A DNA stretch of 64,000 nt from Cenococcum geophilum (lineage: Eukaryota). Positions within the stretch are counted from its first letter, which is position 1; each line of letters begins with the position of its first letter. Location of the stretch: NCBI GenBank assembly GCA_050273025.1, contig CP158635.1, forward strand, positions 11,222,001-11,286,000, given 5' to 3'. The position numbers were made by a program, and so were the translations under genes. This document shows positions 12,169 through 54,170 of the stretch, in pieces. The notes under the pieces are model-generated. The model was not told the origin of the DNA. It ran no database searches and was given only the letters and a program-made list of their open reading frames with translations.

Positions 12169-12179
12169 AGGGGGGGTAC

Positions 12180-33199: not shown

Positions 33200-35600
33200 G
33201 GTTTATCCTAGAAATAGTTTTGCACAACATAAGTGGCATAGGCTGCCGTATTCCGACACATAACACCAATACGTTTACCTAAAATTTCCATAGCTGCAAG
33301 CCCTTTTACCGGTCGTTTACTAATTAGGGGTGGGTAGAAATCTATATATAGGCCGCTATGCATAGGATGAATTACAATTTCGTATTCTATGCGACTGCTA
33401 GCGCACCCAAATAACTATATACATTTTAGATGCCCGCATTTAAAGGCTCTTATATACCGGTCTATATACTTTCTTAATACTAAATTAGACAAACTACTAA
33501 TAAGGGGTAGCTCTATACTTACTTAAACTTTCTCTTATTCGGAGTGGGTCTATGCTTACATTTAGGCCAATATAGGTAGTGAAAGAGACAGTTTGCTCTA
33601 GGGGGGATCTAATAGTAGCGGTATTAACATCTTAGTAGCCTATTAGCCGGATTTATTTAACTTCTTACCTTAGTCTCAGTTCCTATATTGGCTTATTTAA
33701 ACTAGGGATTTATAAAATATTTGGTAATTATTATAGAGGATTATAAATGCCTTCTAATATATAATTACGCTTAGTTAGTAAAAGAAGGAATACCGGCTAA
33801 AGCTATAAGGGAGGGAGTAGGGGGCGGGGTAAATGGGAAATCGGGCCTATATCCTAAATTACGTATAATTAGAAATTTATATATATTAGCAAACTAAGGA
33901 GGGTTATAGACATACCTATAATAAACCTAGTTAAAAATTAAAACTCGACTCTATTAAATCCAGGTTCGTCTAAAGGGGCGCCGCGATATTATTTAGGGCT
34001 AAATCTAGGTTTTAAGTGTGTCGTCTTATATAGTTTTTTAATTTATACCTCTTAGTAAATCCATTACCTTTTTAGGATTTCTTGCAATTTAAATATAGGC
34101 AAAGGTAAGGGTTGCGGCCGCCGTGCATTCCATAGGCGTTTCTTTTATGGCGATAGAGGTTACTAAAAGTCAACACAGTCTCCTAGTAATCCTTAAATCC
34201 GCATTAAACCCCTAGTATTTGGTTTAGGGTTAAATATGGATTTTAAGAGTGTTTTCTTCTTATATAGTCTCTCAATTTATTTTACTTAGTAAATCCATTA
34301 CCTTTTTAAGATTTCTTACAATATAAATCTAGGCAGAGGTAAGCGTTACGGCCGCCGTGCATTCCGTAGGCGTTTCTTTTATAGCAATAAAGGTTATTAG
34401 AAGTTGACTTAATCGTCTCCTAGCAATCCTTAAATCTACATAGAACTTTCCGCATTAGAATTAGTCCTATAAATAGCTAGCACTAAAGGTATTAACTTAT
34501 CCAGAAATTAAGAGATATAGATAAATAATTTACTATATAATAAGATATGTTTTAATCTAAAGGGGAGTAAAAGTTAAGGTTAACATAAGGAAGAACCCAA
34601 CTAGCTCTCTATAAGGCATTATTAGCGTTAAATAGTTACGCTAAAGGCTTATTAGATATAGGGGGTTATAAAAAAGGCTTACATTATCCATTATTAAGGA
34701 TCTCCTATAGATTTGTTAGATAAGGTCCCAACAAAAAGAGACTAATAGAGGGGGAGGAAATAGGCTTACACCTACCATTTCTTAGGCTATGACCCATAGT
34801 ATTAAATAAGGGGTAGATATAGAAGAAGGAATGTTATATTTAAGTTAGCATTTGTTATCTATATTATAGTTAGCTACCTAATCAAACGTATTCACCTAAA
34901 TTAAAGTAGCTGGCTATAAATATGCACGGTTTACAGCCGCTTATCTCGAAGTCCGTAGTAGGGTAATTCCCATAGGGTATATATTGCATAACGACTACCT
35001 TTAAATTCTCTACTAGATTAATTTTAAGACTACGTAAAGGATTTATATTGCGCTTAGGAACTACATACTTTAAAAATTTGCTTAATCCCTATAAATTCAG
35101 CGCGCTAATAAACTTATATACATAGAACTAAAAAAATTCTACAATAACTATAAAGAAATAGACTTAAGTTTCTAACCTTTAGTTAGGATGTAGATTGTTA
35201 ACCATCTCCTATTATCTACCCGCTAATAAGTTATATACCCATAAGTAATATTATAACTTACCTCTACTTTTAAGTCCTTAGTTTTTCTAACTAGTCCCCC
35301 TAAAGGATATATTCATCTATTTTAACCTTAAGAACATAAAGATAAGATATTAACTTAGTATACACAAATAATAACTAGATAATTAAATACTTACGTAAGC
35401 AATATTGTTAAATACCGTACTAAGATATAGCCTAACTGGACATTATTAAGTAACCTCTATCGCAACGTTATTCGCGAAGTCTCTAAACCACTCCTTATAA
35501 GATTAATAATCTTTATTCTCTTTAGGTTGCCGCTCCGCCCAGTTTACAGCCTTTACTATAAGTATTATAATATATTTAAGATATAGATCTCCATCGGAAC
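33200..35600 (-). pseudogene. RIPed tandem C2H2 zinc-finger transcription factor with an internal 234-bp duplication
   Basis: De-RIPed LFHCPYWPKCKH...KK(H)xDR(H) and FKCGHxKC..LFGCASSRIE(H)EIVIH at about 33370-33590, split by an intron. Upstream extent uncertain. Confidence 0.65.
34051..34440. repeat. Direct repeat with 234-bp period (78 codons)
   Basis: CTTAGTAAATCCATTACCTTTT at 34051 and 34285, with about 155 bp of continued similarity. Confidence 0.85.
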
Positions 35601-36569
35601 CCTCTTATAGTGGTTAGTATTAAAATATTCTTTAGGGAGTATAAGAATAAGGAGGGAGGTATTACAGATTTTGTTCTTTAGGAGAGTTAATAACAATTGC
35701 ATGCGGAAATCTAATCTACTAGTAGGGTATACGAATTATACTCGAAATTTCTATTAATACCGCGCCGGTAATACTGCGATCTATTAATAATATAAAGACA
35801 AAATCCACTCTTACTATCCCCGGTTATATAGTAACGCCCTAAATACGACTAGTTATAATTTTCCTTTATTAGGTTTATAGGTTAGGAGTATATAATGGGG
35901 CTATAGAGTGGCTTATATCCTCTAAGTTCCTAAGAGGCAATAAGGGAGATTTATATACTCTTTCTAAGCCAAGATTTTATTCTAGTATTTTAGTAATAAT
36001 GGATAAGGAGATGTTTATAGGCTATAAGATATAAAGTCATTAGCGTAAAACCTTATCCGTTTATCTCTATTTCCGTTAATATATCTATATACCTAAATAG
36101 TAGATTATTTATAAGTCGTTTCTAGGCTTAGATTGCTAGCTAGTTAGCCTAGCCTAAAATAGGATAAAATATATCTAGCTTATACTATAAAAGGTAAGAA
36201 GCGAAGGTCAAAGACAGACACGAAGCAAAAATTGCCCTATAACTGTTAGTGATTTAAATAAAAGTAGCTAGAAAAAAAGTACTTAGTATATAGCCAAGCT
36301 ATCCTTTAGAAGTTTTAGTAGAAGGATTAAGGATATAATAATTATAACACTTATAAGAAATAGTAAGATAACTTATATCTAGCCCCAGATTCTAGTACCT
36401 CTACTTATTAAGCAAAGTAAATACTTCTAGCATTCCCAGGTTAGGAAGTAGATTAGGTAAATTTACTTTATAATAAGAATGCTATATATTAAGCAGCGTA
36501 CTCCAGCTTTTATCCTAAGAGTTTCACTTTAATAAATTTAGCATTTAGAGTCTAAAGTTAAAACCTTTT

Positions 36570-37070
36570 ACTTATACAAATGCCGAAAATAATGTTAAAG
36601 CTACCTCTACTATAGTAAGAAACAACCATCCGGCTAGAACCCTATAAGAGATAGCTTAGCCAGATATTTCTGCTACACTAGTATTAAGTAATGTAGTAGT
36701 TTTTAGGATCTATAAACGATATTAGCTATAGAGAAGGAGGTTAGGCACCGCACTTATAGATAAAAATATTACCATTTCTAGCGCGCAATCTATTACTGCT
36801 AGGGAAACATTTTCGAACTTCTATCTAGTCCCGTGCTACTTTTAGGCGATTTCTAAAAATGCAAATGCCAAAACTGTAAAAGTAATGTGTGCCCCATAAG
36901 CAATAACTATAAAAACCTTAGTGGAGCTATAGAAGGGTGTATATTTCCAAAAAAGGATATAAATACTAATACCTATTGCAAGCACGTAAGCCACAGTAGC
37001 AGTAATAGCGAAGGAAAGTATGATTACAGTAGTATTAAAGGAATAGGTAGAGTCTATCTTAATAAATAAG
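36570..37070 (-). pseudogene. Possible small integral membrane protein, RIPed
   Basis: Several hydrophobic segments (VIILSFAITATVAYVLAIGISIYILF; VLAGWLFLTIVEVALTLFSAF). RIP itself inflates hydrophobic codons. Confidence 0.3.
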
Positions 37071-38214
37071 TCCTATTAGTCTAAGTGGCGCAGAAATAAG
37101 GTAAATAAGACCACAGTTCACCCAATTACGTCAGAGCAGAGTGTATCTATAAGGAATATAAGGCAAAGAAAATCGGTAAGGCCTTAAGGCAACGGGGCAA
37201 TTATATAATTAACGTGCGTCTTTAATTACTGGGCGTAATTGCTCTATATACCACCAAGCGTCTATCCTCCCCCTACCGTAATATTTAATATTAGACATAT
37301 TTAAGGATTTCTTAATAACTGCCCTCCCCTAAAAGCTAACGTCAGCTCCTTAATAAAGGGGTATTACCATAGCAATTACTTCTTTCTTCTTAGGGAGCGC
37401 TCTATACCGTAAAGCCGAAGAAAGATTAGAATTTATTACACGCTAAGCTGCCGCTAAATTTACATAGGAATGTTAATATGCCCGTAGCTTATAGCTTATA
37501 GCCTTCAAATAGTAACTCTATTTATTTTTAGGGATCGTTTATAGAGGCTATAAAGACAACACCAAGACTTAGGCTAGGCCTACCCGTGGGATCTCTAACA
37601 AAAAAATCGTTGCAGCTTGGGGGTTTCATAGAGTCTTGCATTGGCTTCCGCCATAAGTCTATTTCCGGAAGTTTAATAAGGCGTTAAAAATCTAGCCTCT
37701 CTATGGTGGTATTAGTACGTTAATACTATTATTTTTTTTAATTATTTGCGTAAAAAGCGCCTATATAAGGAGGCTATAAATATTCCTTCCCGTTTAGGAG
37801 AAGGGGCTATATTATTAAATCGGATAGTAGCTACGGGTCATGCCACTAAGAACGCTAATATAGCCATAGCTACATTAGCGCTTTTAGTAGCGCCCTTTAA
37901 ATAACCTTAAGGTATAAGCTTCCCCTAAACACATCTATTTCCTAGCAACCTTTCTATATTTATACCAACGGCCTTTAATAATGGGCGCTAACCTTAGTAG
38001 GCCTAAATTCCAAAAATTTACACATTTATTATTTAATGAGGCTGTAAAGGATAAAGAGGTACTTTAGTTAAGTATCCTTTATACAAATTCGCTAACTCTT
38101 CTATAAGTTTAAAGATCTTATTACTTCCTTAGTCTAGACATTACCTCTAGAAACAAAGCAGGCTTTAGGATCTCTTATCTTAAATAATTATTTAGCATCT
38201 AATCTTTCTTAAAA

Positions 38215-38475
38215 AGAATCACAAGCCGCTAAGCTTCCGTTTAATGCCAACGGTCCCTTATTAAACGACAGCTTAATATTAAACCCCTCTTAAAATGGAC
38301 TATAAATAACTAAGTTTCCGTCTAATACTAACGATCCTTTATTAAACGACAGCTTAATATTAAATCCCTCTCAAAATGGATTATAAGTCGCTGAGCTCCC
38401 ATCTGGTGCCAACGGTCCCTTATTAAACAACAGCTTAACATTAAACCCCCCTTAAAGAGAACTACAAATTATTAA
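38215..38475 (+). repeat. 81-bp tandem repeat, 3 copies (27 codons)
   Basis: AACG(G/A)TCC(C/T)TTATTAAAC anchors at 38249, 38330 and 38411. Confidence 0.9.
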
Positions 38476-39630
38476 GATTTTAAAAGGTATAAGATTTTAG
38501 TACTTGCTGAAAATAACGCCAGAGTAGCTCTATATTAACCCTAAAATCTAAAAGTAGTATATAGGGTAAACCAGTAACTAGACTCTCCTCTTTACTATAC
38601 CTATAGCCCAGTTATAACTATAAGAAAACACTATCGCCCACTCCCAACTATAAAGAGACTTTATTATCTACTTACAACCTTAGGGAGTTATTAGTACTAG
38701 CTTAGGTGCGCTATATAATGCTACTATACTTATTAAGCAGAATACTCTTATTAACTCCATCTATTAGAGATTCCTTATAGTGTTCTATAACGGACTATAT
38801 AAAATAGTTAAAGATACGGAAGTACTAGCCGTACTTATCTCCAATAGCACTAGGATTAGGCTTAAGGAGGTAAAGGAAAAAATAGATAGTTAGGTTTTAG
38901 ATAGTAGAAGGTAGCATACTCTAGCACTATCTCTTAGTTAGGGTTCCTTATTTCTACTCCTAGAATTAATAAGTAAGTACCCAAATATCTAAAAAGGTTA
39001 AAATACTAACAATCTAGATAGCTTTATCTGCCGCTAAGTAGTTATAACCGCGAGGCGGCAGTTAACAAACTTAAACTTTTAGGTATTATAGAAAATGCGC
39101 AGTCTAAAAAGGTAGACAACTTAGGCGTAGACAAGCTAAGTGCTAACGAGCTCAGTATAACGATTAAAGACGGCTTATTAAACCCCTTTAAAGATATTAT
39201 TAAATCTATCTACTACTAAATAACAGAGGCAATAAATACTCTTAAGCGGGGACGGCGCTTAGTTGCGAATAAAAGCCACAGGTCTAAAAAAGCCCGTTAC
39301 AATATCCCCTCTACCGCTCTAGTAGTTGCTTAAGACACAATTTTAGGTATAGAGATAACTAGACCTAGCAATAAGAGCCACTACTTAGCGGACTACGGCT
39401 TAGCACTATAACCGGGTCTCACCCAAGAAAGGGAAGATGGCATAAGTAGGCCAACTATAGACGTATAAGTCCTAGTTACTAGCCAGAGCCCTAATTTAAT
39501 ATAAGGAATCTTTCCGAAATCTTCCTATAAAGGGAACAACGCAAGACTAGGCGCGATTATCAGCCCTATTAACCCTCACTATAATTTATATATAAACTCT
39601 CTAGTCCGTCCTACTAAATACTAGTAGAGT

Positions 39631-39950
39631 GGGCTATATAACTACCTAAACCCGCTACCTACTTAGGATCCTTCTACTCTTTATAAATTTTATAAGGGCG
39701 GGCTATATAACTACCTAAACCCGCTACCCGCCTAGGATCCTCCTACTCTCTATAAATTCTATAAGGGTGGGCTATATAACTACTTAAACCTACTACCTGC
39801 CTTAGATCCTTCTGCTCTTAATAAATTCTATAAGGGCGGGCTATATAACTACCTAAACCCACTACCTGCCTAGGATCCTTCTACTCTTAATAAACTCTAT
39901 AAGGGCGGGCCATATAACTATCTAAACCCCCTACCCGCCTTAGACCCTTT
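39631..39950 (+). repeat. 69-bp tandem repeat, about 4.6 copies (23 codons)
   Basis: GGGC(T/C)ATATAACTA anchors at 39631, 39700, 39769, 39838 and 39907; unit approximately GLYNYLNPLPA(Q)DPSTLxKFYKG. Confidence 0.92.
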
Positions 39951-41939
39951 AAGTCCTATTTATTAAGGCTAATACTAAGGGCTGCCAGATACCGGATCGA
40001 TAAATAGCGCCCTACCCACCTCTTATAAGAATAGTAGATTAGCAATAAACAGCTATATTAATTCCTTTTTTACCGCTTTCTCTATAGGGTATAATAATAG
40101 CTCCAACCCATAAGCCTTAGCAAATTCTAGCACCTTAGGCGTAATATCTTCCTTAAATTTTAATAGCATTCCGGCTTTCAACTATGCATAACCCTTATAT
40201 TCTCCTCACCCTTCTATAGTTACCTACGAGATAGTATTTTAATAAAGCCATATAGATATATACGCGAGCCCGCCTCCCTTACCTTTAAAGTACTAAAGTA
40301 TATCCTCCGGCGCAGCTAGTATATCACCGCTCTTAAGCTAAAAGGGCTGGAAATTTCTTTCCCTTAAGACTTAAAATAGCGGAAACCTATTATCCTAATC
40401 CAAATTACTAAGTACTAATATCACTATAGCCGTATTCACTAATCCGCGTATACTAGGGCTAGGTTTTTCTAGTTTTATATATACTGCTAGAAACGAATTT
40501 TCAAGTAAGAGCTTATTGGAGGTAGTATTAAGTATAATAGCGGTATATTCTTTAGCTTTCTAGTTCTTATTTATTAGCATAAATCATATATTATAAATGT
40601 TAACAGTACCTCTAGGTACATAGAAATAATCTTCTCTATTTTTAGAGGGGTGCCTAATATATAGAAAGGCTCTAGAAAGTTACGTAAGGAATAATATTCG
40701 CCCTATATTACTAATTGTTTATATAAGCTATTCATATCTTAACTCTCTATACTATAAAGTATCTTTAGTATAGTTATAGTGGTGCCTATAATAAGTAAGA
40801 CGTAAGTATGGGATATAGATATGTTAAACAGCGGGTAATAAAAAGTAATTATAGTGGGGCTGATTTCAGTCTAGGCAGTGCCCCTTAGCATAAGCATGTA
40901 ATATTTAGACGTCTTAAGGCTATTACTTATACCTATTATAAACCTCATTCCTATCGCTCTAATAAGAAACGTTATACTATAAACCCTTTTACCGGCCTCT
41001 TTTATATATACTGCTATAACCAATATATAAGTCGCATATTACTTTATAAATAGATACCTAATATCTCCACGCAGATATATAGGCGGCGCCCCTTCCCCTT
41101 CCCGTTTACGTATTTCCCGCTAGCGTATATCCTAATAAGACCCTAGATAGTATACTGCACGCAACCTTTAACCGGCCTCCGTTATACGCAGCGCCTCTAG
41201 ATAATAAATATGCAGCTATATCAATTCCACCTACTAATTCTTATTTAATCCTAAAGGCAACACTTATAGGCAAGCAGCTCTATAACTAGCCTCTCTATTT
41301 AGAACAGATATACTAATATCTTACCCTCTGCAGTTATATATATAAATTCTCCCTAAACTTCCTAGCGCCTAGAAACCTCCGCAGATGCATATATAGCTTA
41401 CTCCCTTATATTTAGCGCCTCCTAATTTACGCCCTACTCTAAGATATATTTATAATATCTTCTTATCTTATACCGTCTAGAAATCCCAATTTAAGCCTTA
41501 AACATCATTCTTAACCTTTATCAATCTTTACTACCCACAATACTAACACTAGCCCTATATTCTATAAGTGTTTAAAGCATAGCTAGAGGCGAGGCGATAT
41601 TCGCCCTATAGGGGCTTCCTATTATACTAGTTCGCAACCTCTATATATATATCTACGGCACACCCGCCTTTAATTTAGGCTTTAATACCTCTAAGACAGG
41701 CATTTACTAGTCTTAATCACCCGCAGCACTAGCATTAGTAAGGCATTAACACGCCTTCGTTACTACTATATATATATACCCTAAGCTAGCTTGGCTAATA
41801 CATACCGCAATCTATACCTTACTATTAGATCCACAATATTAAGCTGATATTTTAGTAGCGACGTCCTAAACCAAAATTTCGCCTTTATTTAGCTCGATAC
41901 TCTATTAGAAAAACCATTTTTATATATTTACATTCAGCA

Positions 41940-44900
41940 TTAAATCAATCTCTATCACACTTTTTGCCCAAATAGATCGATAATATAGCTTTGACTATTT
42001 TAAAAATCTTCTCTATTAAACCAAGGATAAAGTAAATAGAGTAAGGGCTCTAGAGAGTTGCGTAGGGAAACTCCATATCGCGGTAGCTATAAAATAGTAT
42101 CGTCGCGCAGACTCTTTACTAACGCGTATTTTAAACTTACTATACCTAAAATTTAAACTTCCTCGCGACACTTATCTAAAGCTCGTAAGACTTTATTTCG
42201 AGCTAGGGTTAATATAAAGGTTGGATATAGGATATATAAGAAATTTTCAAAATATATTTATAACTCTGGCAAAGTAATGGCTTTCTTAATTATTTCTCCT
42301 AGTTTAACATTTTATTCGCTAATATACTACTTATAGTCGGAAATACTGCCTTTAGTATAGGAAAGTCCTAATACTTAATTAGAGACGCGCTATTAAAGAA
42401 CTTAAGGCTAAGTTCCTGCCTAATAAATTTAGAACTGTTTATCCTAAAAACATAGACCATCTTACTAGCTTATTAATCTAAGTTTACAAGTCCGCTTGTC
42501 TTTACTTCGATCTAGAACAGATTCCCGCTATATTTAAGAAGTTTCTACCCTACTTTAGCATTATTAACCTAGAGCATGCATATATAGTAATTATATTGCT
42601 TAATCTATTATTCCTAACAGTCCCTATAGAGCAGACTGCTAAAAAGCAACAATGCTACCTACTAACTCTCTTTAATGCTTAGTCCTAGGTTACTTGCTTA
42701 TAGTTTACTAATAAGAATTTTATTAATCTATTTTCTAGGCTTATTAAAAACTCTTTACTTATAAGACATATCCTATTCTTAGAGTATAGTGTCTTTACCA
42801 ATTAACAATCTGCGCTTATTTTTACTACTATTTTACGGCTTCTTAACATACCTAATAAAAACTTAAACTCTACTTACTAATAAGTTAGAGAACATTCTTA
42901 GAGAGTAAGGGCGTAACTTAAATCTAACACTAAAAGCCCTCCTACTGCCTAGAATGTCGCTTAATTAATTATAATGTCCTTATCTCCCGCCTATTTAGTC
43001 TATTTAGACTCGGTTTTATTAAAGCTAGAAACCCTCCTATAAGCCGTTAAGATATACTTCTATCTATTAAATTCTAGCGACTGGACTCTAACCTTATCGT
43101 AACTAGTCTTCCATTTAGCTAATATATTTGTCTTACGCTAGAATTAAGAGCGAAGTAGTAAGATAAAGGTATTAGATAAGAGGAGACTCGATAACGCTCT
43201 TAAGTATTAATTCATACTATGCTTACGGGAGGCCGTATTTATAGGAATTTTCGCTAAGACACCTTCTGCTATAGAACTTACTATATTAACTCTTCAACTC
43301 CTAGCCTTTTTTAACTAGGACTTAATCCTGCCTAAAGCCCTCTAGCGGATATATTTAGCCATCTAAGGCCTAGTTAAAGTCTATAGAACAATACCCTTAA
43401 TCTAAGCGTTAAGCGTACTGTTTAACATTATAGCAAAGGCGAAAGGCTATAGGTGTTACATTATAACACTCCTTAGGCTTATCCTTCCGGGTATTAACAC
43501 TAATAATTTAAAGAAGATATTACACACATTATCCTACATAGAAGTTATATCCTATATAGTACCATTCTATAACCTAATAAAGGAGAAGATAGCGGGTTAT
43601 AATAAGCTAGTGTAGGAAGATAATATAAATACCCTAGCGGAATACGACTTATACCTAGCTAAGCGGTAAATAACTAATTAGATCGTCCGGTTAGAAAGCG
43701 GCGACATTAATATTAACTACAAGAAAGAGTTAGACGACTATTAGGAAAAAGCAATTCTAAAGTCATCCACTGTAAAAGTCTTAGGATTTATCGTATTACT
43801 ATTTAACCGGGTCTTTACCCTTTTGGAGAAGTTAGAGAGGCCTAACAGTTTCCATTTACATAGCGATCACTTAGAAAATAAGGTGCTGTATATACTTAGA
43901 AGAGCATCTACTATATTTCTTACAGTATTATCGCCGGATTTATTTAATATAGCGCTAAATAGAATCGCCGGATTTGTAGCAAGTACTAGCTTTTAGCAAA
44001 TAAGATCCGTAGTGGGTTTTTTATGCAACGCATTTATAAAGGTTAACCCTAGAAAGTCTTTAAAGCGATTGCTCCCCCTTCTTATTACTAGTATTTGTAG
44101 AGAAATCGATATTTATAGAGCTAGCATAACGGCAGATACAGAGATACTACTAGGGGATTGTATATTAGTGTGGACCATACATCTACTCGGTTATTCCTTA
44201 ACTAAAGTTAAAGACTCTGTCCTTACTTAGAAAAAAGAGCTATTTGCTATTATTAAGTACGTACAGCTAGAATGCAAAGGGAGGCCTAAGATAATTGCCT
44301 CCGATATTACTAGCCGTCTCCTATATAATTTAACAGCTATATATATTATTAATTACTTAATCTATAAAAAGGACAAACTTAAGAATAAACTTATAATGTA
44401 AGCATAGGGTAAAACTGCCAATTTAAAGCATGTTATATAGCACAAGCTAAGTAATAAGGAAATCAACTTTGCAGCTAAACTATTCAGCTCGTAGTGCAAT
44501 ATAGTAATCGATTCTTTAGCTAATTTAACTAGACCTACGCCATTAATTAAATAAGACGGTACTAGGAAAGAGTAGTCCGACGAAGTATCTTAATACCTTT
44601 ACCTTCTTTAATTAGTAATGTCAGGGATCTCAACCCTTTTTAATCCTAGGGCTAACCATAGTAATTCTACTATAGGCTGTGACGCCTTACATTAAAGGGG
44701 CGGAATTAACATAGATAGTGATAAAGACGGTACTAATTTAGCTAAAACGGAGGACAAGGAGCTAACCTTCTAGCATATATTAGGTTACCCCTTAGATTAA
44801 GGAGGAGAGAATTACCAGTTGGTCTACAAGCTGCGCCATAAAATAGGTAGAATTATTTATAAGACCCACTAGTTTCTATTTACAGAGTAGTAGAATAAAC

Positions 44901-47637
44901 CGCAATGCCTTAAGGCGTTATATAATGCATCCAAGTCATAGTTTACCTAAATGGGTTCCTACAATGACGAAATGTCTAAAAGGTTAAAGATTTTCAAAGC
45001 TTGGCTTACTCTATTTAAGTTTAAAGGGCTCTAAAAGGAATATCTAAGGCCGTTACTTATTAAGCGGGCACAGTTATATCATTTTTAGAGGTTAGACTAT
45101 AATGTGTACTTTAGGCCCCTAAAGGAACTAGAGCTAACTAAGCTACTACTTTCTAACCTTATTAATTTAAGCTTGTTTACTTATAAGGAAGTTCACCAGA
45201 GCACAGGGAATATACTTAATTAGGTAGTGGGCCAATTTCTAAGGACCGTACCACTTGTTATTCTACCACTTCTAAACGCATTTACACGAGTAGTAGAGGG
45301 GGAAAATTCTATAAGCATTAAAGGCGCAATAACCTATTTATTATCCAGCTGTATACAATCTAAAATTTCCCAGCATTAGGGATACATTCCACGTACCATA
45401 AAAGCCTGCGTTAAGGCTACTCAAATTAAGAACAATTCTATGCAGAATCTTTTAAAAAATAAGGAATGGCAAATTATAGACATTATTAGACCTTAAAAAT
45501 GCATAGTTATTCACCAGTATAACTTTAGAGAGGCCATTATCCCAGAGAAAGTCAAGGCCCAAATTTAGGCAAGAAGTGACTTTATAGCGAGCGAGAAAGT
45601 GAAGTTATTAAGGGATCTTATCTAATTAACTAAGGAATCTCACTAGAAGATAAAATAGTATCTAATTATAAAGATTATAGAAAACCTTAAAGTTACCTAT
45701 AGTTTAATTACTTCTAAAGCGTTTATTAACATAATTATAGAAGCCTCTATAGATTCTTATCCGGACCTTTATTATATCTCTTAATAGGTTATATATAAGA
45801 TCTTTAAGTTAATAGACATATAAATCTTCACCAAACGTAAATACAACAATTATCTTCAAGACGTCGTCTCAAACCCTAATAAAAACCCTTAAACTAACTC
45901 CGGTTATAAGTCGGATTTAGGGTCTAAGACTTCTACTAAAAAATACTATACGGATAAGGACCCTCAAACGATAATATAGAGTAAATCTCTGCAGGTAGCA
46001 CGGCTTATTACTATAGGAGTTATATATAACGACCTTAAGGAGAAGGTATTCTCCTGCATTACGTAGCGATTAGATTAAAAATAGCTATTAAAGTAATTAG
46101 AGTTTATAAAGATAGAACTAGATTACGAATTCCAAGAGTCGCATTATATATTAATTTATTATATATGTCGGCTTTTCTTAACTAGGTCCAACTTTATAGA
46201 TATTCGAAAATTCGTAGAGAGTGTTTTTAAAGCGTATAGTGACGAAAACTACTACGGGGTCGCTGTAGAAGCTATAACTGCGTTATTCCTTCTTCCTATG
46301 GTTTTAGCCCTATACACACTAAAGACGTTTTAGGAATCCGTCTTATCTAAGGCTAGAACGGTTTTATAAGAGCGGTTAGCTAATAAGAATTAAGAGAAGT
46401 TTTTAAGGCATATAATAAAAGACAACAACCTAAGACAATTCTAGCCACTTATTAAACCTATATTTTACATTAGCATAGAATCTAATATAGCATCTTAAGA
46501 TTCCCTTTAGATCAGTCTACTAGGCTTAATTATTCACTATACTAGTCCACGATATTTAGAAAAGTAGGAGATTTTACAAGGCTTTATAGAGTATCTTAAT
46601 TATCCATATAATGCTGTCCATTTAGCGACAGGTATAGCGCTAGCTTGTATAATAACAATTAGCAAGTTATATAAGGATATTAACCATCTTATTAACGCAC
46701 AGATAAAATATTCTTTAGTTAGTATCTAACTGTATTAGTTAATAGATAAGGAATCTATAATAAACGCTAAAGTCCTTCGCCGACTTAATATATAGCAGAA
46801 GCACAACCAAGATTCTTACGTCCGGGCTATACGCACCCTTTTAATATAGTAGGATACCTATCTATCATCTTACAGTTATACTTAGCTACTTAATTTCCCG
46901 CACAAAAGGCTTATCGAGCTTATCCTCTTTATAGTTGCTATTAATAAAGAAACCAAACTCCTAGTAGAAGAAATCCTTAACAAGCTTTCCAATGTCCCTT
47001 TCCATATAGATAAAGTTGGACCATTTATCTCTATTTTAATCTATATAGGAGCTAAGGCAGAATCTTAGCGTTACCAGTCTCTCATTCTATAGTTTATAAA
47101 TATTTTTAACTACCGCAACCTGTTCCTTATATCGGACAATTAGCAGTAGGACCTTATTAAATATATTAACAATATAATTTTCAATAAGCAGCCAGAAGTC
47201 CAAGCTAAGGCCGCTAATACGCTTACTAGTATAATTAGGGCCTCACCTATAGTGTTTAGTATTAACCGTCGGCGGTAATTATATATAGTGATATTAAAAA
47301 AGAACTATTAACAATAATGGCAAATTCATAGCGCAGTACTCGGCCTTAGTGCTTTACTACTAGCATTCCCATATTAGACAGCCCTAGCATTATAGCAACG
47401 GAAAGTATTAGTTATACTTATAAAGACCTCACGCTTAGGTTTAGGGCTAGTAGACAATAGCGTAAAGGAAATTTTAGCAGTCTTTAAGAAGAAGAGATAA
47501 GATACATAGCTTAAGGATAGAGAAGTAATTATCCCTTATTAGATAATTCCAAATAATACTAAATCGCCTATTAGGGATTCTCTTTAAATCGGCTAGAGGT
47601 CTTAGAAGATATATAACCGATAAGCTACTTCGCCTAA
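41940..47637 (+). pseudogene. BLM10: Blm10/PA200 proteasome activator homolog, full-length, RIP-inactivated
   Basis: FDYFKNL..KLHIAV..LKFKLPR..LKLVRLYFEL (about 41990-42215). DWTLTLS(Q)LVFHLANIFVLR(W)N (about 43078-43143). GINTNNLKKILHTL (about 43490). HSAVLGLSALLLAFPY (about 47327-47375). Spliced C-terminus ending SYFA-stop at 47637. Confidence 0.9.
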
Positions 47638-49259
47638 AACTATTATCCCCCTAACCAGCAAATAAAGGATAAGAGGTAAGTAAGAAAAGTAAGGGAAATA
47701 TAATAGAAGTACTTAATAAGAAGGCAAGTAGAGAAACTAGTAGGTAGTATAGTCGTCATAAATTAATTTAATAAAAATTTTCTTTATTTTTATTAGGTGC
47801 TAGTACAGTATATAGCTACAAGGCGCATGTTATTTGTATATAAGCTATATACTGCGCATATAACCTAAAAGACCTCTTCTATACCCTTACACTGAGACGC
47901 CCCCTTTCCTTAAGGATTTGTCTCTTAGTTTCTTACAACCTACTAATATATCCTATTATTCTATCAATTAGACTCCCTATCTACCTCGTGCCTTATATTA
48001 ATAAATATTATACTATATACTATATATTAACTAGACAATTTAGAATAAGAGCTCTATCTTTTAAAATAAGACTTTAGAGCCTCTAATAGAACCCTAAAAC
48101 ACGTTGCCCTTCTATATACGCCTACCACTATCTAATATCGGCTCGCTAAATCTAAATAGACGGAGTTTTAACTCTAATAAATACAGTAGGGATAAATACA
48201 GACGCAAGACGTAGCGGTTAAATTAAGATATAGAGGAAGGAAGCGGTAAACAGGTACGGTATAGAGTGAAACAGGGCGAATACTTATAGCAACCTAGTAG
48301 TCTATAGGCGATATACCATTCTAAAATCTCACTAGGCACTTTAACGCCACCTATGACCTATCGTCTATCCCTTCCCCTTTAGAACTAGCATTGCTAAATC
48401 TATTAAATAGACCGTAAATATTATATTCGTTTCCTTAACTAAATTCTTTTAGGTGCCTTATAATGGATAAAGCCCTATCTTTATAACTAGGTCACGCGGT
48501 TAACTCCGCTTAATATTAAGGGATTAGCTAAGACGTTGCCTAAATACCCTCTTACATTAAGGCGCTATATTTTAATTTATGCTTACTAAGCTATAAGCTA
48601 AGCCTCGCTTTAGGTATTATTAGTAAACGTCTCTATTGGCAACGTAATGCCTATTAACTAGCTTTAGTAAAAGAGTATATAAGACCCCCTTATACAATTA
48701 CAGCGCGTTAGTAGACTTAATCTAAATAAAGAGTAAATTGGGTGGCGATGCAGGACTATATTAACTATATTAGTGGGGCATAGCACGCGGGCTATAATAG
48801 AGAAGTGAGGATTAGATAGCTTAGCACCAAACTTATAGAACGAAAGGGCTGCTATAGATAGGTGCGTTATTAGTAAGGGAATTTCTAGTTAACCCGCTTA
48901 GTTAACTAATTTGCTAAAGCTAAAAGCGTATATATTGTATAGCTAGACACTAAATAGGACGTGCTAATGCTTTGGCATTGCATACGCCTAAAAACCCATA
49001 GCTATATAATTAATACGCGCGTTTAATAACAAGGCCTAATTAATCATTTTCGGAGCCCTTTAAAATCCCTAATTTTGCGTCGCGACTATTTTATATACGG
49101 CCACTACCGGTGTATAGAATTTGTTAATAAAGGCCCTTAGTTACTATTAGGGCTATATATATATATTATATACTTCTCTATTAACTAATTACTTAAAGTA
49201 ATTTAAAGATTATAAATATTAAGACAATATTTATTAAATTTAACGACACTATTCTAATT

Positions 49260-50350
49260 ATAAATATTAACCCTAAACCTAGGCCATTACTTCTTAAACG
49301 CATTCTCTCTTATCTACTCTCTTATCTACACAATAACGGGAATAGCCGCTATTAAAAGATGCGGTTTAATAGAAGTGGGTAGTTTTAGGCTAAGCTATCT
49401 ATACCTACTACTAATTAACGTTTAGTTAATAACTACGTTAATGGCATTCCGAAGGCAGCAGCAACTATATCTTTAGAGCCGCAATTTATAATCTTTTAGC
49501 GGTTCGCACTAGAATTAATATAAGTCCTTTTATATTACTAGTATAAGGTTAGTAAGGCGAAAAAAGCACTAAATAATTATAATAGGGAGCGTATAGGCGA
49601 TATTATATCCTTTTATAACAAGGAACGAAATAAACTCTTAACTGCCTTAGATAGTGCGCTTTAGGACTATAATAAATTAACCTAAATACAAACTTATGGC
49701 TGTAAACGGTAGCTAATATATCTAGGTATAAGGGTGGCTCTTACCTAATAAATACTTAGCATCCCTAAGCCTAATAGTCGAGATATACACAGCTTTTTTA
49801 ATCTCTTTTATAACGACAAAGAGGTCACAGAAGCGTTTTTTTAAATATTACACAGCTCCTATGTCTGACCTGTTTATACTCAGTACTCGGCGGGATTCAT
49901 AGCTTTATACGCTATTAGGTCATTCAGCCTGCCGATCTCTATTTCTAAAGGTATTCTCACCGCATCCTTAAGCCTAAATATACTAATTAAAGTAGCGTAT
50001 CTTGTTAACGGCGGAACAGATAGCAAGGTTTAATAATATAATTATTAATCTAATAGACAATACTAGGATTGTTTATTTAATCCAAATTATATACTATCTA
50101 TTCTTAGTTATCTTTCTATAGTCACTATATTTTACTATACTTTCTAGTACCATTATTCCTTTTGCCACTATATTACTCATTATTAAAGATATATCATTCC
50201 ACTAAGCATTTGTTCCTATTGCAGCGTATATCTTAAGCCCTGTTTTTCTCCTTTATAAACACTAAGGTAGCATACTAACCGGAAATCTTATATAGGTTTT
50301 GCATCATATATAAGGTTATAGCTAAAAGCGGCGGTAGCCTAGTTATAACA
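49260..50350 (+). pseudogene. DUF6594-like membrane protein, RIPed
   Basis: YVNGIPKAAATISLEPQFIIF.RFALEL..VLLYY(Q)...LL..LDSAL(Q)DYNKL...PNSRD, matching the recalled GYPxxAxxxxxxPxxxIFRRF pattern. Hydrophobic 3' part. Confidence 0.55.
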
Positions 50351-52549
50351 GTTTAGACCTACCCCTATAACTAGAGCAACAAAGTACTATTAGAATAGAT
50401 AAAAACAGTAACCAGGGAAAGTTTTCTACAAGGGCCTTAGAGCCTAAATCTAATTTAAATTCGTTATTCTTAATTTAATACAGTCCCTTTATTTTTTTCT
50501 TTATAGAAAAGGAATATACTACTATTTATTTCGCTATAAGCTGCCCTTAGGCTATTCGCATCTTTCTTATAAAAATTTTATCCTATTAAAAATAAATAAA
50601 TTGGGTTGAAAACTTTCCTGCTAAAATTACATCTATTTAACCCTAAAAACCCTTATCGCCTTATTTATAGTAGGCTTTAAAGCTTAGCCAGTTAGGCCAC
50701 AATAAAGGCATACGCCCGTTAATCCAGTGGCGGGCCTTATAGTTATTGTAGAGGATATTCGTCGCTCTAAAGCCAAGGGGCTTTACAGTATAAGATATAG
50801 CAAGGCATTTGGCGAAGCCCTATAGCGTTAGCGTTGGGTTTATAGCGTCCGCAATAGGCCGTAAGGACTAGCCGGTAGCTGCAGGTTAGCTGTTACCAAC
50901 TATAGTATTAGCGGGCATAGGACGGTAGCGGGCGAGGCGTAAGGGCTAGGTAGGTAGTAGGGGTAGTAGTAGGACGTTGTCTTTCCCTCCCTTTACAGAT
51001 AAGAGCTAAGGGGATATTAGGAAGCAAGAAATAGTTACGTTAATAAATTACTTATTTAACGTCCACTCGCTAAAGTAAATTAAAGCCTAAGTTTTATAAT
51101 TCTATAAGATAATAGCTGCTTTAATTGCTACTGTTTACTAGGGTTTACTATTTCTCTACCTAGCAACCTCTAATAATGTCCAGCGAGACTTATAGCAACC
51201 TATTATTTTATATTAGGCTATTTATATCGCTAAAGGAATATTTTATACCTAATCCTCTCTAATATATTTCTTAAATACTAACTTAATTACATTTTTAAAG
51301 ACAGACTCTATTATATTAACTCTTAGCCATAAAACTCCATTCCATTTCTACGGGTATACTTTATTAGCTAAATTTAAAATAGCCTATAGGGATATACGTA
51401 CTTCTAATTCTATAAGCTTCTCCTACTTACCCTTTAGTACCTTTACCCTTTGCTTTAAGGCTACCCTTTCCTCCTATAGTTACCATTCTATTAGATAAGT
51501 AAAATACTTCTAAGAGGCATATATACCTTTTTAAGCGCTAACGCATCCTCTAGGCCCTTTATAAATAGAGTGGAGGTATATAAATCTAGATATTAAGTAT
51601 TAGAGGTTTAGCTAGATGCTATACCATTTTCACTAACAAAGTAGTATAAGAAGCTATATATATTAACTTCTCTAGCATTAGCGGTATGCGTAGGCACATT
51701 ACCCTCTATAGGCGATTTTTGGAAAGCCATTCCGTAAATTAAAATATTAGTAGAACTAACAATAGCTAGTTAAGTATAGAGCGTGCCTTATATATTCGGT
51801 AGCTACTCCTTAAGTAATTAACAGTTTAATAAGAGCTTAGGAATAGATTACCAGAGGACAGCGGTTTAGAGTTTTTAGCGTATTTAATAGAGATTTTTTT
51901 TTTTAAAGAATAAACGTCATTTAATAGAGAATTTATATAGCTTACCCGCAAAAATCATAAAAGTAGTCTAGAAATTTTAAGAGAAAAGTTAAGTTCCTAG
52001 GCCCCCTACTCCACAAAGCTATACCATAGTTAACACTCGCGCTCGGTTACGGGTTAGTAGAGGTAAGATTATACTTTAAATTTCTTATTATTATAGGCTC
52101 TCCGGCTTTCTGCTCTATAAAAGCTATACTATAATATATACGTTGCATTTATTACGCGCTAGGCCTCCTACTAAATAAGTCATAAATAAGGGATTAGTAG
52201 GGATAAAGCAGGGGACGTATATTCTATCTATGCTTACTCGCATAAAAGTAGGGTCATATAATAGTTATAATCTATATAGGTAATAGTTTATATAAGTTAA
52301 TGCGATTATTACTCTCGTTCCCCTTAGCAAACTAGATAAATAAAGAAATTAAATACGCTTCGTTTATTTAATTTCCTTAGGAAATTTAATAAGAAGCAAG
52401 ACGCGGCGAAAACAGGACTAGGTAATAGTGGTGCTATCCTATACACTATTAAGAAAGGCATACACACAAGCGAATTAACTAGAGTCACTAAATTAAATTA
52501 AGTCTTGGCGAAATAAAGTTATAAATTTAATTAGCGAATTAAGGCTCTA

Positions 52550-53060
52550 AATCGTTATAATAAAGCTTAAAATTTATATATAATTGATTCTATTATATAC
52601 TAATTAGGCTAGTAAGGTCCTTCTTTATAAAGGGGTATATTGTATAAAGCACAGCCAAATTAAGTCCTCGGAGGAGCGTATTAATGTTTTAGTATTCGCG
52701 CACGGGCCTCTTTTGGCGTACGCCTTAACGGCGTATAGAATACTCTTTAAAGAGTTTACCCGAAGATAGTTTAATACTACTTTATAATACTTGGATGGCT
52801 TTACTAGCCTATCTATAACAGGTTATCACCTTATTCCTTAACTATGCCACAGTATTAATCTACGTCCGTCTAAGCTTTAAAGCCATATTTCTAGGTTGTC
52901 CTCTTCCTACTATATATTCGTAATATATATAGGTAAATCGGCATATAGCCTTAGTTTAGCATCTTACATTATTTTAGTTTTTAGGATCTCCTAAATATAT
53001 ATAACACCTATAACTAACGTCTTTCTTAATTCACCATATATGTAATTTCCTCCATCCTAA
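52550..53060 (-). pseudogene. Unknown protein, shares a motif with the gene at 61.2 kb
   Basis: DLPIYITNI(Q)(W)EEDNLEIWL at about 52880-52940. Confidence 0.45.
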
Positions 53061-53880
53061 ATAAAAATATATTACCCCCTATAAGTAGAATACTAAATAA
53101 AAATACTAGGCAGATAGACGTGCTAGATAAATAAAGGCTTATAGGTAGATTAGGTATATAATAGATAGATTAGGTACGTAATAGGCGGATAAAGCTATAT
53201 AGTAGATAGATAAAGGTTTATAATGGTAGCAAGTGACGTAATTAGATAATTATAGCTTTTTACCTTTTTTTGTATTATTTACTCCTCTAGTAAACTAAGT
53301 AAGTCGGTCGTCGCTAGCTTTAGCGGAGACGATTAAACTAGCTAATATGTCTTTTAACAGTATTCTTATCACTGCTTCCCTTATAGCACTTTATTTTATC
53401 CTTTACCTCCTTAACTAGTTTATCTAACATCTCTACTAGCTTTCCGCTATATTTACCGCATATAACCTACACATTACCTCTTCTATAAAAACTATCTGGG
53501 CAGTAAATTACTATTTTCCTGGTTTTTATAAACAATCCTAGCTCTATTAAACTTATTAAGGAATTGGTTTTTAGATAAAGATATATAGCGATCACTATGG
53601 CCTTCTCCTAGCATCTAAGCCCTTATTAAACTTGCCTATAGAATTCCGGGTTACTAATATCTTACTTAAGATTGGCATTGTAGTAATCCTGGCGCGGATT
53701 TAGAACCGTAATTAGGAGTAAGCTAAGGCGCTTCATTATATCATTTTGCTATTTAGGCGCTTTCCCTATTTCTATACTACTAGTAAGAAAGACAGATCCG
53801 CCAGTAAGAGGAGCTATATTTAATAGTTAGTAGATAGAAAAGCCTAGGTATATATCCTGCGTAATAGGCTCTATAGTAAT

Positions 53881-54170
53881 TAGGGTTATAGCCGAAGACT
53901 TAATAGTAATCTTAGTAGGACTTATAATGGTTAGGATAATAGGTATAGAGTTAGCAAAAAGTTTAGCAGGAGTTAAAACAACTAAAGCTATAGCTATAGA
54001 TTTAGCTAAGATATTAGTTAGGGTTATAGCTAGAGACTTAGTAATAATCCTAGTAGGACTTATAATAGTTAGGATAGTAGGTATATAGTTAACGAAAAGT
54101 TTGGCAGAAGTTAAGACAACTAGGGCTATAGCTATAGATTTAGCCGAGATGTTAATTAGATTTATAGCGA
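53881..54170 (-). repeat. 138-bp direct repeat, 2 copies, in a probable Pro/Gln-rich coding region
   Basis: TAGGGTTATAGC at 53881 and 54019; a minus frame de-RIPs to Gln/Pro-rich sequence. Confidence 0.8.

What the first reader, a model, noticed from the sequence alone, without database searches (positions are those of the whole stretch)
41940..47637. A divergent extra Blm10/PA200 proteasome activator inside RIPed accessory DNA
Seen: a complete gene of about 5.7 kb with N-terminal, middle and C-terminal Blm10 motifs and the proteasome-docking YFA terminus. Many differences from canonical fungal Blm10 motifs (as recalled) cannot be produced by C>T/G>A, so it probably diverged as a paralog before RIP. 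Known: Blm10 is normally a conserved single-copy gene; it promotes ubiquitin-independent proteolysis, including reported turnover of acetylated histones. Inference: a mobile lineage of Blm10 may exist.
Basis: partly seen in the sequence, partly recalled or inferred. Interest (0 to 1): 0.8.

Follow-up and report, generated by a model that had tools for sequence, protein, structure and literature searches.

The report
Dead copy of amplified Blm10-like gene
This is a mutation-riddled, dead copy of a highly divergent proteasome-activator (Blm10/PA200) gene that has multiplied into a dispersed repeat family in a repeat-rich root-symbiotic fungus, where a few undamaged copies are still transcribed.

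Summary
Window 41972-47637 (+) is a full-length Blm10/PSME4 homologue (PF16507 E 5e-104, PF11919 E 4e-8), with two introns and a C-terminal SYFA plus stop ending at 47637. It is dead: 91 in-frame stops in 1852 codons. The damage has a RIP signature (TpA/ApT 1.54; C>T at 64% of CpA against 16% of CpC and CpT).

It is not a fresh copy of a canonical BLM10. Its closest intact relative, P0002 (a 1671-aa ORF), is only 37-44% identical to canonical Pezizomycotina Blm10s, which are 50-85% identical to each other. P0002 still nests inside Dothideomycetes, next to Lepidopterella and Mytilinidion, on a stem about 12 times longer than normal.

The gene belongs to a dispersed repeat family:
- 14 further RIPed DNA copies in metagenome contigs
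- at least 13 protein fragments
- about 6-24 contigs per site in three genome runs

Named members are Cenococcum geophilum 'hypothetical proteins'. Less-RIPed copies give sense-strand RNA reads.

Both introns are retained, so copying was at the DNA level. The copies share a sharp 3' end near 49015 but have staggered 5' ends. I found no TIR, LTR or transposase.

The host's canonical BLM10 could not be located, so 'extra' is inferred and 'mobile' is unproven.

The parts
41972..42273 (+). Exon 1 of the RIPed Blm10-like pseudogene. The start codon is mutated to ATA.
   Evidence: The frame and start come from the multi-copy alignment and from the N-terminus of P0299/P0310. Canonical homology starts at residue 53, window 41987.
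42274..42336 (+). Intron 1 (63 nt; GTAATG...CTAAT...TATAG). It is present in all six copies that cover it.
   Evidence: It shows as 21 extra codons against the canonical proteins and P0299/P0310.
42337..47524 (+). Exon 2. It holds the HEAT_PSME4_mid domain and most of the PSME4_C domain, and is riddled with TAA/TAG stops.
   Evidence: Pfam hits. tblastn: P0002 residues 1-1665 align to 42626-47584 at 63% identity. Stop count.
47525..47574 (+). Intron 2 (50 nt), at the same position as the last intron of canonical BLM10 genes.
   Evidence: All six canonical ORF-called proteins break off right after ...RQDTWHVDVK. The family ORFs P0002, P0305 and P0313 break off after ...RQDTWL(T/A)D(K/R)(K/E).
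47575..47637 (+). Exon 3. It ends ...SYFA, an HbYX-type proteasome-docking terminus, followed by TAA.
   Evidence: Canonical proteins end ...LWKSYFA.
41442..41971 (+). Upstream flank shared with other family copies. This is the 5' part of the repeat unit, and its outer limit is staggered among copies.
   Evidence: Homology to the window starts at 41164 (L007), 41442 (L014), 41523 (L003) and 41570 (L001). Contig loose ends lie at 41444 and 41601.
47638..49015 (+). Downstream flank shared with other copies, up to a sharp common 3' boundary. Positions 47819-48019 are missing from several copies.
   Evidence: Homology ends at 48994-49015, followed by three different continuations. RNA depth falls to 3.5 and then 0.2 beyond 47672.

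Best explanation
The feature is one RIP-inactivated member of a lineage-specific repeat family. The family descends from a DNA-level duplicate of a Dothideomycete BLM10 (proteasome activator Blm10/PA200/PSME4) gene. The host is very probably Cenococcum geophilum.

Shown:
- The window copy is a full-length pseudogene killed by C>T/G>A transitions.
- Its progenitor was already very unlike canonical Blm10.
- The family is multi-copy and dispersed in different flanking contexts.
- Both parental introns and about 1.4 kb of untranscribed 3' flank are copied along.
- All 15 DNA copies in hand are dead and have diverged from each other neutrally.
- Less-mutated copies are transcribed in sense.

Inferred history:
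1. After duplication, one or a few live copies evolved very fast under weak residual constraint. They kept a long open frame, the HEAT-solenoid domains and the C-terminal Tyr-Phe-Ala docking motif. Their products probably still cap the 20S proteasome, with altered or relaxed function.
2. The roughly 7.5 kb unit (gene plus short flanks) was copied repeatedly inside the repeat-rich compartment. The route was segmental duplication or passage as a passenger of another element, not the gene's own machinery.
3. RIP then destroyed most copies, this one included.

The window copy itself has no function.
For: Identity and damage:
- Pfam and tblastn place it in the Blm10/PSME4 family.
- It has 91 stops in 1852 codons and no frameshift relative to its relatives.
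- C>T has hit 371/582 CpA, 290/658 CpG, 114/702 CpC and 124/794 CpT.

Divergence before RIP:
- 443 of 591 differences from P0002 are RIP-explainable. Against four canonical proteins the counts are 383-395 of 1141-1163.
- P0002 is 37-44% identical to 17 canonical proteins, which are 50-85% identical to each other.
- Both copies differ at 195 of 600 near-invariant canonical columns.

Origin:
- P0002 sits in a 6-row clade with Lepidopterella, Mytilinidion and three Pleosporales (SH-aLRT 100). Its end branch is 1.91 against a median of 0.15.
- With P0310 added, the family stem is 1.74 and the tips are 0.12-0.13.
- The AU test rejects a canonical-Dothideomycetes clade that shuts P0002 out (p 0.005).

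Family size:
- 11 short proteins are 70-86% identical to P0002. With P0262 and P0263 that makes 13 fragments, which are 30-55% identical to a canonical protein.
- 14 metagenome loci are all RIPed copies.
- At single sites, 5-6 (X1), 8-13 (X5) and 14-24 (X14) contigs carry another letter.

DNA-level copying: both introns are kept, and intron 2 lies at the canonical position.

Neutral decay of dead copies: transversion-polymorphic columns number 89, 81 and 95 at codon positions 1, 2 and 3 (p 0.56).

Live copies:
- P0002 has a 1671-codon open frame on a tip of 0.13 changes per site. That gives about 13 nonsense changes expected if neutral (my estimate, from the 23:392 nonsense-to-missense ratio of the standard code).
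- P0002 against P0310 is 85% identical at canonical-invariant columns and 78% at variable ones (p 0.02).

Expression: in RNA run X21, first-mate-on-minus depth is 22-165 over 41003-47672 and about 0 on plus. Differences are A>G 896 and T>C 772 against C>T 101 and G>A 85.

Host: cluster members P0310, P0311 and P0314 are NCBI records named Cenococcum geophilum.
Against: - The host's canonical BLM10 was not found, because no genome is held. The capped protein searches list no Cenococcum canonical protein. The family could therefore be the only Blm10-type gene.
- The sharp common 3' boundary with three different continuations looks more like an element terminus than random segmental duplication.
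- Constraint between un-RIPed members is weak. 59 of 389 canonically invariant positions differ between P0002 and P0310. The reference-genome copy is split into two gene models with a lesion after ...GHDG. 'Live' copies may therefore be few or recently dead.
- The RNA reads come from another strain and show transcription, not a protein.
- Trees used LG+G4 with a short search, because the mixture model did not finish. The AU group was named after the tree had been seen.
- Proteasome binding is untested.
Confidence: 0.8

Rival explanations
1. The family is the cargo, or the body, of a genuine mobile element that moves as DNA. Candidates are a Helitron-like element, a Starship or an undescribed type. 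Under this view the copies are insertions rather than segmental duplicates.
For: - The copies lie in at least six different flanking contexts.
- They share a sharp 3' boundary at about 48994-49015, followed by three unrelated continuations.
- In run X14, summed depth is 487-790 over 41003-47672. It is 37-106 just upstream (37668-41002) and 66-364 in the four bins just downstream.
- Copy number differs between strains.
- Introns and flanks travel with the gene.
Against: - No terminal inverted or direct repeats appear, even in a purine/pyrimidine alphabet that ignores RIP. Scores of 93.5 and 105 lie below the shuffle means of 109 and 114.
- The 5' limits are staggered: 41164, 41442, 41523 and 41570.
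- The six flank segments scanned gave no Pfam domain.
- No target-site duplication was seen at L003 by eye.
- The window and L013 are collinear from 36856 to 57033, which is segmental.
- The window was not scanned whole for a Starship captain gene.
Confidence: 0.3
2. The family is the host's own BLM10 orthologue. It was released from constraint, amplified and is now decaying. No canonical copy remains, so nothing here is 'extra'.
For: - The family branches exactly where the host species is expected, beside Lepidopterella and Mytilinidion.
- No canonical Cenococcum protein appeared among the listed hits.
- Blm10 is dispensable in yeast (recalled).
Against: - The protein searches score only the 7999 candidates that share the most words. 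They listed a small part of all canonical Blm10s (171 and 35 hits), so absence says little.
- All 35 named Pezizomycotina used in the tree have a canonical protein on a short branch.
- Stem lengthening of about 12-fold is typical of a redundant duplicate.
Confidence: 0.15
3. It is a recent RIPed duplicate of the canonical host BLM10, and its apparent divergence is RIP damage only.
For: The RIP signature is strong. RIP needs a duplicate to act on.
Against: - Only about a third of the differences from canonical proteins are RIP-explainable.
- The un-RIPed members P0002 and P0310 are 37-47% identical to canonical proteins.
- The de-RIPed consensus of 15 copies is 43-44% identical to canonical proteins.
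Confidence: 0.02
4. It is a processed retrocopy (retrogene) spread through RNA by LINE machinery. This would explain the common 3' end and the 5'-truncated copies.
For: - The copies share a 3' end.
- Some copies start at 45381 (L009) and 47150 (L004, L005), and the 5' limits are staggered.
Against: - Both introns are retained in every copy that covers them.
- The unit includes about 1.4 kb beyond the point where RNA coverage ends.
- There is no poly(A) tail at the boundary.
- L004 and L005 are better explained as an internal deletion of the window-type block.
Confidence: 0.02
5. The family was acquired horizontally from another, unsampled Dothideomycete and did not arise by duplication in the host lineage.
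For: The stem is very long. The distribution looks species-restricted as far as the databases show.
Against: - The family is placed beside the host's closest sequenced relatives.
- The intron position is shared with canonical genes.
- No donor-like sequence turned up among 1.84 billion representatives. The best long hit is 42% identical.
Confidence: 0.05

Closest known systems
Canonical fungal Blm10 / mammalian PA200 (PSME4), the single-chain HEAT-repeat activator that caps the 20S proteasome
   Same: - Same domain set: PF16507 over the full length, plus PF11919.
- Same size class, about 1850 codons.
- Same last-intron position.
- Same C-terminal ...SYFA docking motif.
   Different: - 37-47% identity, where orthologues across Pezizomycotina keep 50-85%.
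- About 37% of near-invariant residues have changed.
- About 45 N-terminal residues are missing, and PF16547 scores under its cutoff.
- It is multi-copy and dispersed instead of single-copy.
- Most copies are dead.
Duplicated genes and transposons inactivated by repeat-induced point mutation in Pezizomycotina. For C. geophilum this includes the large RIP-affected regions described in PMC12910237 (passages read).
   Same: - AT-rich block with 33% GC.
- C>T/G>A transitions with a CpA preference.
- TAA and TAG stops, and almost no indels.
   Different: The target is not a transposon but a housekeeping-gene derivative. Un-RIPed transcribed members persist beside the dead ones.
Host genes captured and amplified by DNA transposons, such as Pack-MULE or Helitron capture and Starship cargo (recalled, not tested against any record)
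   Same: A host-derived gene with its introns and flanks is present in many dispersed copies. Copy number varies between strains.
   Different: No element termini, target-site duplications or transposase were found. A whole 5.7 kb gene is copied rather than a fragment. The 5' ends are staggered.

Membership tests
Blm10/PA200 (PSME4) proteasome activators | Central HEAT region (Pfam PF16507) | tested here: met
   Window copy: E 4.8e-104, profile positions 1-524 of 524. P0002 and P0310: E 6e-152.
Blm10/PA200 (PSME4) proteasome activators | C-terminal domain (PF11919) | tested here: met
   Window: 33.4 bits against a cutoff of 22.5. P0002: 54.6 bits.
Blm10/PA200 (PSME4) proteasome activators | N-terminal domain (PF16547, BLM10_N) | tested here: not met
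   No hit on the window copy. P0310 scores 20.3 bits, under the cutoff of 27.2. Pairwise homology to canonical residues 53-149 is nevertheless present.
Blm10/PA200 (PSME4) proteasome activators | C-terminal hydrophobic-Tyr-X (HbYX) tail that docks into the 20S alpha ring (the motif's role is recalled) | tested here: met
   The last exon ends SYFA, as canonical proteins do (LWKSYFA). Variants such as YLA and YFT occur in other RIPed copies (read by eye).
Blm10/PA200 (PSME4) proteasome activators | Intact open reading frame | tested here: not met
   The window copy has 91 internal stops in 1852 codons. All 14 metagenome copies have 6-109 stops. The relative P0002 has an open 1671-codon frame.
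Blm10/PA200 (PSME4) proteasome activators | Orthology: single copy with a normal rate of change | tested here: not met
   The family is multi-copy. The stem is 1.74-1.91 against a median of 0.12-0.15.
Blm10/PA200 (PSME4) proteasome activators | Binds and opens the 20S core particle | not testable with these tools
   No complex job was sent. The chains exceed the size limit and the question needs a bench test.
RIP-mutated duplicated DNA | Excess of C>T/G>A with a CpA preference, and skewed dinucleotide indices | tested here: met
   TpA/ApT is 1.54 and (CpA+TpG)/(ApC+GpT) is 0.57 in the gene. C>T rates are CpA 0.64, CpG 0.44, CpC 0.16 and CpT 0.16. In run X1, 3933 of 4180 listed changes are transitions.
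RIP-mutated duplicated DNA | Other copies of the same sequence exist | tested here: met
   14 loci are 80-90% identical over the gene. Several contigs cover each site in three genome runs.
Transposable element (any class) | Terminal inverted or long terminal repeats | tested here: not met
   The repeat finder gave only chance-level short matches. Purine/pyrimidine alignment of the flanks scored below shuffled controls.
Transposable element (any class) | Transposase, reverse transcriptase or recombinase inside the unit | tested here: inconclusive
   Pfam found nothing in 39001-40500(+), 40202-41101(-) or 49203-50402(+). The stretch 47638-49015 was not scanned with Pfam. RIP may hide domains.
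Transposable element (any class) | Precise common termini in different genomic contexts | tested here: inconclusive
   The 3' end is sharp and is followed by three different continuations. The 5' ends are staggered over about 400 bp.
Processed retrogene | Loss of the parental introns | tested here: not met
   Intron 1 is present in 6 of 6 copies that cover it. Intron 2 is present in 11 of 11.
Starship giant transposon cargo | Captain tyrosine recombinase (DUF3435) at one end, and element-scale boundaries | not tested
   Only selected segments of the window went to Pfam. Whole-window scans failed because of output limits.

The most novel reading that the evidence does not exclude
The un-RIPed members are not decaying leftovers but a selfish or conflict-driven gene. 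On this reading a fast-evolving proteasome cap, with its docking tail preserved, spreads as a new kind of DNA element with a defined 3' terminus. Its product would redirect 20S proteasomes, for example towards histones or host defence proteins, to the benefit of the element or of the fungus in some genetic conflict. This would be a first case of a proteasome activator recruited by mobile or repeat DNA.
Probability: 0.12. Interest if true: 0.85.

Novelty: new variant of a known kind. Interest (0 to 1): 0.6.

Why it matters
Blm10/PA200 is treated as a conserved single-copy proteasome regulator. Here a derivative has lost about a third of the residues that are otherwise invariant across Pezizomycotina. 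It has kept its docking tail and multiplied to roughly ten or more copies per genome, and it is still transcribed.

This offers three things:
- A natural experiment on which parts of the 250 kDa solenoid are needed for what.
- A clear case of a housekeeping-gene derivative behaving like a repeat in a RIP-active genome.
- A marker family for copy-number and RIP dynamics among strains of a globally dominant ectomycorrhizal fungus.

In public records the members are only 'hypothetical protein', or auto-named 'proteasome activator subunit 4'.

I found no paper on it:
- No paper holds both 'Cenococcum' and 'proteasome activator'.
- None of the 10 papers listed holds 'repeat-induced point mutation' or 'gene family expansion' beside a Blm10/PA200 term.
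- 'Proteasome' and 'Blm10' occur 0 times in the main text of the 2026 genome paper PMC12910237. Its supplements were not read.

Tried and rejected
- Whole-genome search: no genome is held.
- Whole-window six-frame Pfam: failed on a typo and on output limits. It was replaced by a stop-density scan and targeted scans.
- Mixture-model tree: did not finish in two 300 s runs. LG+G4 was used instead.
- The search for related loci with P0002 in metagenomes: 46 pattern matches, none a relative. A purine/pyrimidine-degenerate DNA pattern then worked.
- Earlier findings of this scan: nothing by place, sequence or words.
- TIR/LTR search: negative.
- Helitron-like ends: the boundary reads ...AAAAACCCATAG and shows no TC or CTRR pattern on either strand. 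There is only a weak 5-bp hairpin (read by eye).
- Candidate host canonical protein P0125: it groups with Venturiales, so it is not the host's.
- Run search: no RNA holder of the window copy itself is listed.
- P0299 lacks intron 1 and may come from a transcript, but its source type is unknown, so it is not used as evidence.
- No structure or complex job was sent.

Full report
**What is there**

The window is AT-rich fungal DNA, about 33% GC. It carries RIP-type dinucleotide skews everywhere except an island at 16-20 kb.

A canonical Blm10 (P0003, Lepidopterella) aligns by tblastn from residue 53 to 1942 of 1968 onto window 41987-47506, in one frame on the + strand. The read-through translation matches Pfam PF16507 over its whole profile (E 4.8e-104) and PF11919 (E 4.1e-8). 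It also matches human PA200 chains (E 4e-23).

I compared the window with other copies and with intact relatives. This gives the following gene model:

| Part | Window coordinates | Note |
|---|---|---|
| Start codon | 41972 | ATG mutated to ATA |
| Exon 1 | 41972-42273 | |
| Intron 1 | 42274-42336 | 63 nt |
| Exon 2 | 42337-47524 | |
| Intron 2 | 47525-47574 | 50 nt |
| Exon 3 | 47575-47637 | ends SYFA plus TAA |

The gene is dead, however. It has 91 internal stops (51 TAG, 40 TAA) in 1852 codons.

**RIP**

I scored the window copy against a consensus of 15 copies. C>T, counted on both strands, has hit 371 of 582 CpA, 290 of 658 CpG, 114 of 702 CpC and 124 of 794 CpT. Relative to the window copy, the other 14 copies show 0-2 frameshifting indels each, so the damage is almost purely transitions.

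**It is not a mutated canonical BLM10**

The first protein search gave one outlier, P0002. It comes from ENA and is an open 1671-residue frame on a 19 kb contig. It is 63% identical to the RIPed translation. Every other listed hit was a canonical Blm10 at 29-35%.

| Comparison | Result |
|---|---|
| Window vs P0002: differences explainable by C>T/G>A in the window codon | 443 of 591 (75%) |
| Window vs P0002: differences explainable by the reverse change only | 47 of 591 |
| Window vs four canonical proteins: RIP-explainable differences | 383-395 of 1141-1163 (33-35%) |
| P0002 vs 17 canonical Pezizomycotina proteins | 37-44% identical |
| The 17 canonical proteins vs each other | 50-85% identical |

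At 600 alignment columns that are the same in at least 20 of 21 canonical proteins, P0002 differs at 220 and both copies differ at 195. P0002's changes at such columns are not RIP-biased: 53 are RIP-type, 42 are reverse-type and 133 are other. Its amino-acid make-up is near normal, with GARP 0.209 against 0.246 in canonical proteins. A naive de-RIP consensus of the 15 DNA copies is 43-44% identical to canonical proteins and 77% identical to P0002.

**Where it came from**

- In an LG+G4 tree of 36 proteins, P0002 falls inside Dothideomycetes. It sits in a clade with Lepidopterella, Mytilinidion and three Pleosporales (SH-aLRT 100). Its end branch is 1.91 against a median of 0.15.
- Forcing the 16 canonical Dothideomycetes into a clade without P0002 costs 20 log-likelihood units (AU p 0.005). 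The group was named after the tree had been seen, and no mixture model was used.
- With a second un-RIPed member added (P0310), the family has a stem of 1.74 and tips of 0.12-0.13. It sits beside Lepidopterella and Mytilinidion (support 84), inside Pleosporomycetidae (support 100).
- Intron 2 lies exactly where canonical genes have their last intron. Six canonical proteins called as plain ORFs all break off after ...RQDTWHVDVK.

The family is thus a DNA-level derivative of a BLM10 from this part of the fungal tree. It is not a retrocopy and not an ancient paralogue.

**It is a family**

*Proteins.* A search of 1.84 billion representatives found no long relative above 42% identity. It did find two short family fragments, P0262 and P0263. 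The 'shorter' search added 11 fragments that are 70-86% identical to P0002 and 30-55% identical to a canonical protein. Seven of these overlap P0002 residues 1437-1526.

*DNA.* A purine/pyrimidine-degenerate DNA pattern fetched 14 metagenome loci. All are RIPed copies, with GC 0.28-0.37 over the gene and 6-109 in-frame stops. Among the eight long copies compared, every pair differs by at least 8.6%.

*Genome runs.* I laid three genome runs on window 35000-54999 at 80% likeness or more.
- The whole stretch is repeated.
- At single sites in the gene, 5-6 (X1), 8-13 (X5) and 14-24 (X14) contigs carry another letter.
- In X14, summed depth is 487-790 over 41003-47672. It is 37-106 in the five bins just upstream and 66-364 in the four bins just downstream.

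**Host**

Clusters at 90% identity that hold family fragments also hold NCBI records named Cenococcum geophilum: P0310 (1283 aa), P0314 and P0311. P0310 is 99.8% identical to P0299 and 80.5% identical to P0002.

The runs that hold the window have 146-232 million letters of contigs and include root metagenomes. A 2026 genome paper on this species (passages read) reports 178.5 Mb, 37.5% GC and widespread RIP. That the window itself is from this species is a strong inference. It is not a direct read-out.

**How the copies relate**

Homology between the copies and the window starts at staggered points:

| Locus | Homology to the window starts at |
|---|---|
| L007 | 41164 |
| L014 | 41442 |
| L003 | 41523 |
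| L001 | 41570 |

- Homology runs through the gene and on to about 48994-49015.
- After that point there are three different continuations: window/L013/L004/L011, then L003, then L009/L010/L006.
- L013 is collinear with the window from 36856 to 57033 at about 89% identity.
- L009 starts inside the gene at 45381. L004 and L005 start at 47150.
- L014 has a Ty3/gypsy element, like window 284-6627, inserted at the equivalent of 47382.
- I found no terminal repeats, plain or in a RIP-blind alphabet.
- Pfam found no domain in the flank segments tested.

Copying at the DNA level is shown. Whether it happened by transposition or by segmental duplication plus nested insertions is open.

**Selection**

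Among the 15 RIPed copies, transversions cannot have been made by RIP. They are spread evenly over codon positions: 89, 81 and 95 polymorphic columns out of about 1847 each (p 0.56). This also holds for transversions shared by two or more copies (43, 41 and 48). These copies therefore diverged as dead DNA. Transversion distances are 0.2-2.6%.

The un-RIPed members differ.
- P0002 keeps 1671 open codons on a tip of 0.13 changes per site. About 13 nonsense changes would be expected if it were evolving neutrally. This is my estimate from the 23:392 nonsense-to-missense ratio of the standard code.
- P0002 against P0310 is 85% identical at canonically invariant columns and 78% at variable ones (Fisher p 0.02). 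Against P0313 the figures are 85% and 72% (p 0.01).
- This constraint is real but weak. The reference-genome copy is also split into two gene models.

**Expression**

In the stranded RNA run X21 (organism B in the run table; about 12% of the run was read), reads at 80-95% likeness cover 41003-47672 with the first mate on the minus strand. Depth there is 22-165, against about 0 on the plus strand.

A neighbouring GT..AG joint at 50225-50296, read in the same orientation, shows that this orientation means + strand RNA. The reads are therefore sense to the gene.

The reads differ from the window mainly by A>G (896) and T>C (772), not C>T (101) or G>A (85). They therefore come from less-RIPed copies and not from this one. 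Depth drops to 3.5 beyond 47672, so the shared 1.4 kb downstream flank is not part of the mRNA.

**Open points**

- The host's canonical BLM10 was not located.
- The mechanism of spread is unknown.
- Splicing of intron 2, which is needed for the SYFA tail, was not seen in the rows shown.
- Binding to the proteasome is untested.
- I found no paper describing this family. The supplements of PMC12910237 were not read.

Noticed in passing
window 901-4800 (-) and 8401-12300 (+): Two RIPed Ty3/gypsy-type pol remnants in opposite orientation, with RVT_1, RT_RNaseH, Integrase_H2C2 and SH3_Tf2-1 domains. The same element type is inserted into another family copy (L014) at the equivalent of window 47382.
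   Followed up: partly
window 16000-20000: The only stretch without a RIP signature (GC 0.44-0.46, TpA/ApT 0.82-0.93). It holds several 70-125 aa open frames on the minus strand. By eye they look like pieces of an Hsp70/actin-like ATPase, but four of them gave no Pfam hit.
   Followed up: partly
window 21463-21783 (-) and 21962-22180 (-): An open fragment of a piggyBac-type transposase (PF13843, E 4e-10). Next to it is a weak ClpB_D2-small match, under its cutoff.
   Followed up: no
window about 39700-40100 (+): Five tandem copies of a unit of about 23 residues (GLYNYLNPLPAxDPSTLYKFYKG) in the frame with the fewest stops. There is no Pfam hit. The 38335-40335 stretch gives + strand RNA reads in X21 at depth 83-213.
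   Followed up: no
window 38163-41441: This 3.3 kb is skipped in one X1 contig (joint 38162 to 41445). It is also absent from locus L014, where 37762-38162-like sequence abuts 41442. L007 and L013 share at least part of it. It is a structural polymorphism just upstream of the gene.
   Followed up: partly
window 49674-50340 (+) and 35667-37000 (-): Other repeats in the flanks are strongly transcribed in X21. One has depth 387 with a spliced 70-nt GT..AG intron at 50225-50296 (945 reads). The other has depth 134-177 on the other strand with a 47-nt joint at 36237-36285 (636 reads). Pfam finds nothing there.
   Followed up: no
window 41003-41669, about 47966, 52342-53008: Short stretches with much higher summed contig depth than their surroundings in X1: 2174, 8726 at one site, and 2426, against about 1000 elsewhere. 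This suggests small high-copy repeats flanking the gene.
   Followed up: no
L003 4412-4711 and L007 (between window 41827 and 41856): Two copies carry an extra stretch of about 300 nt in the shared upstream flank that the other four lack. It is either an insertion in those two copies or a deletion in the others.
   Followed up: no
protein P0226 (154 aa): A fragment with a RIP-like make-up. It is closer to canonical Blm10 (65-68%) than to the family (60%). It may be a RIPed canonical-type copy from an unknown fungus.
   Followed up: no
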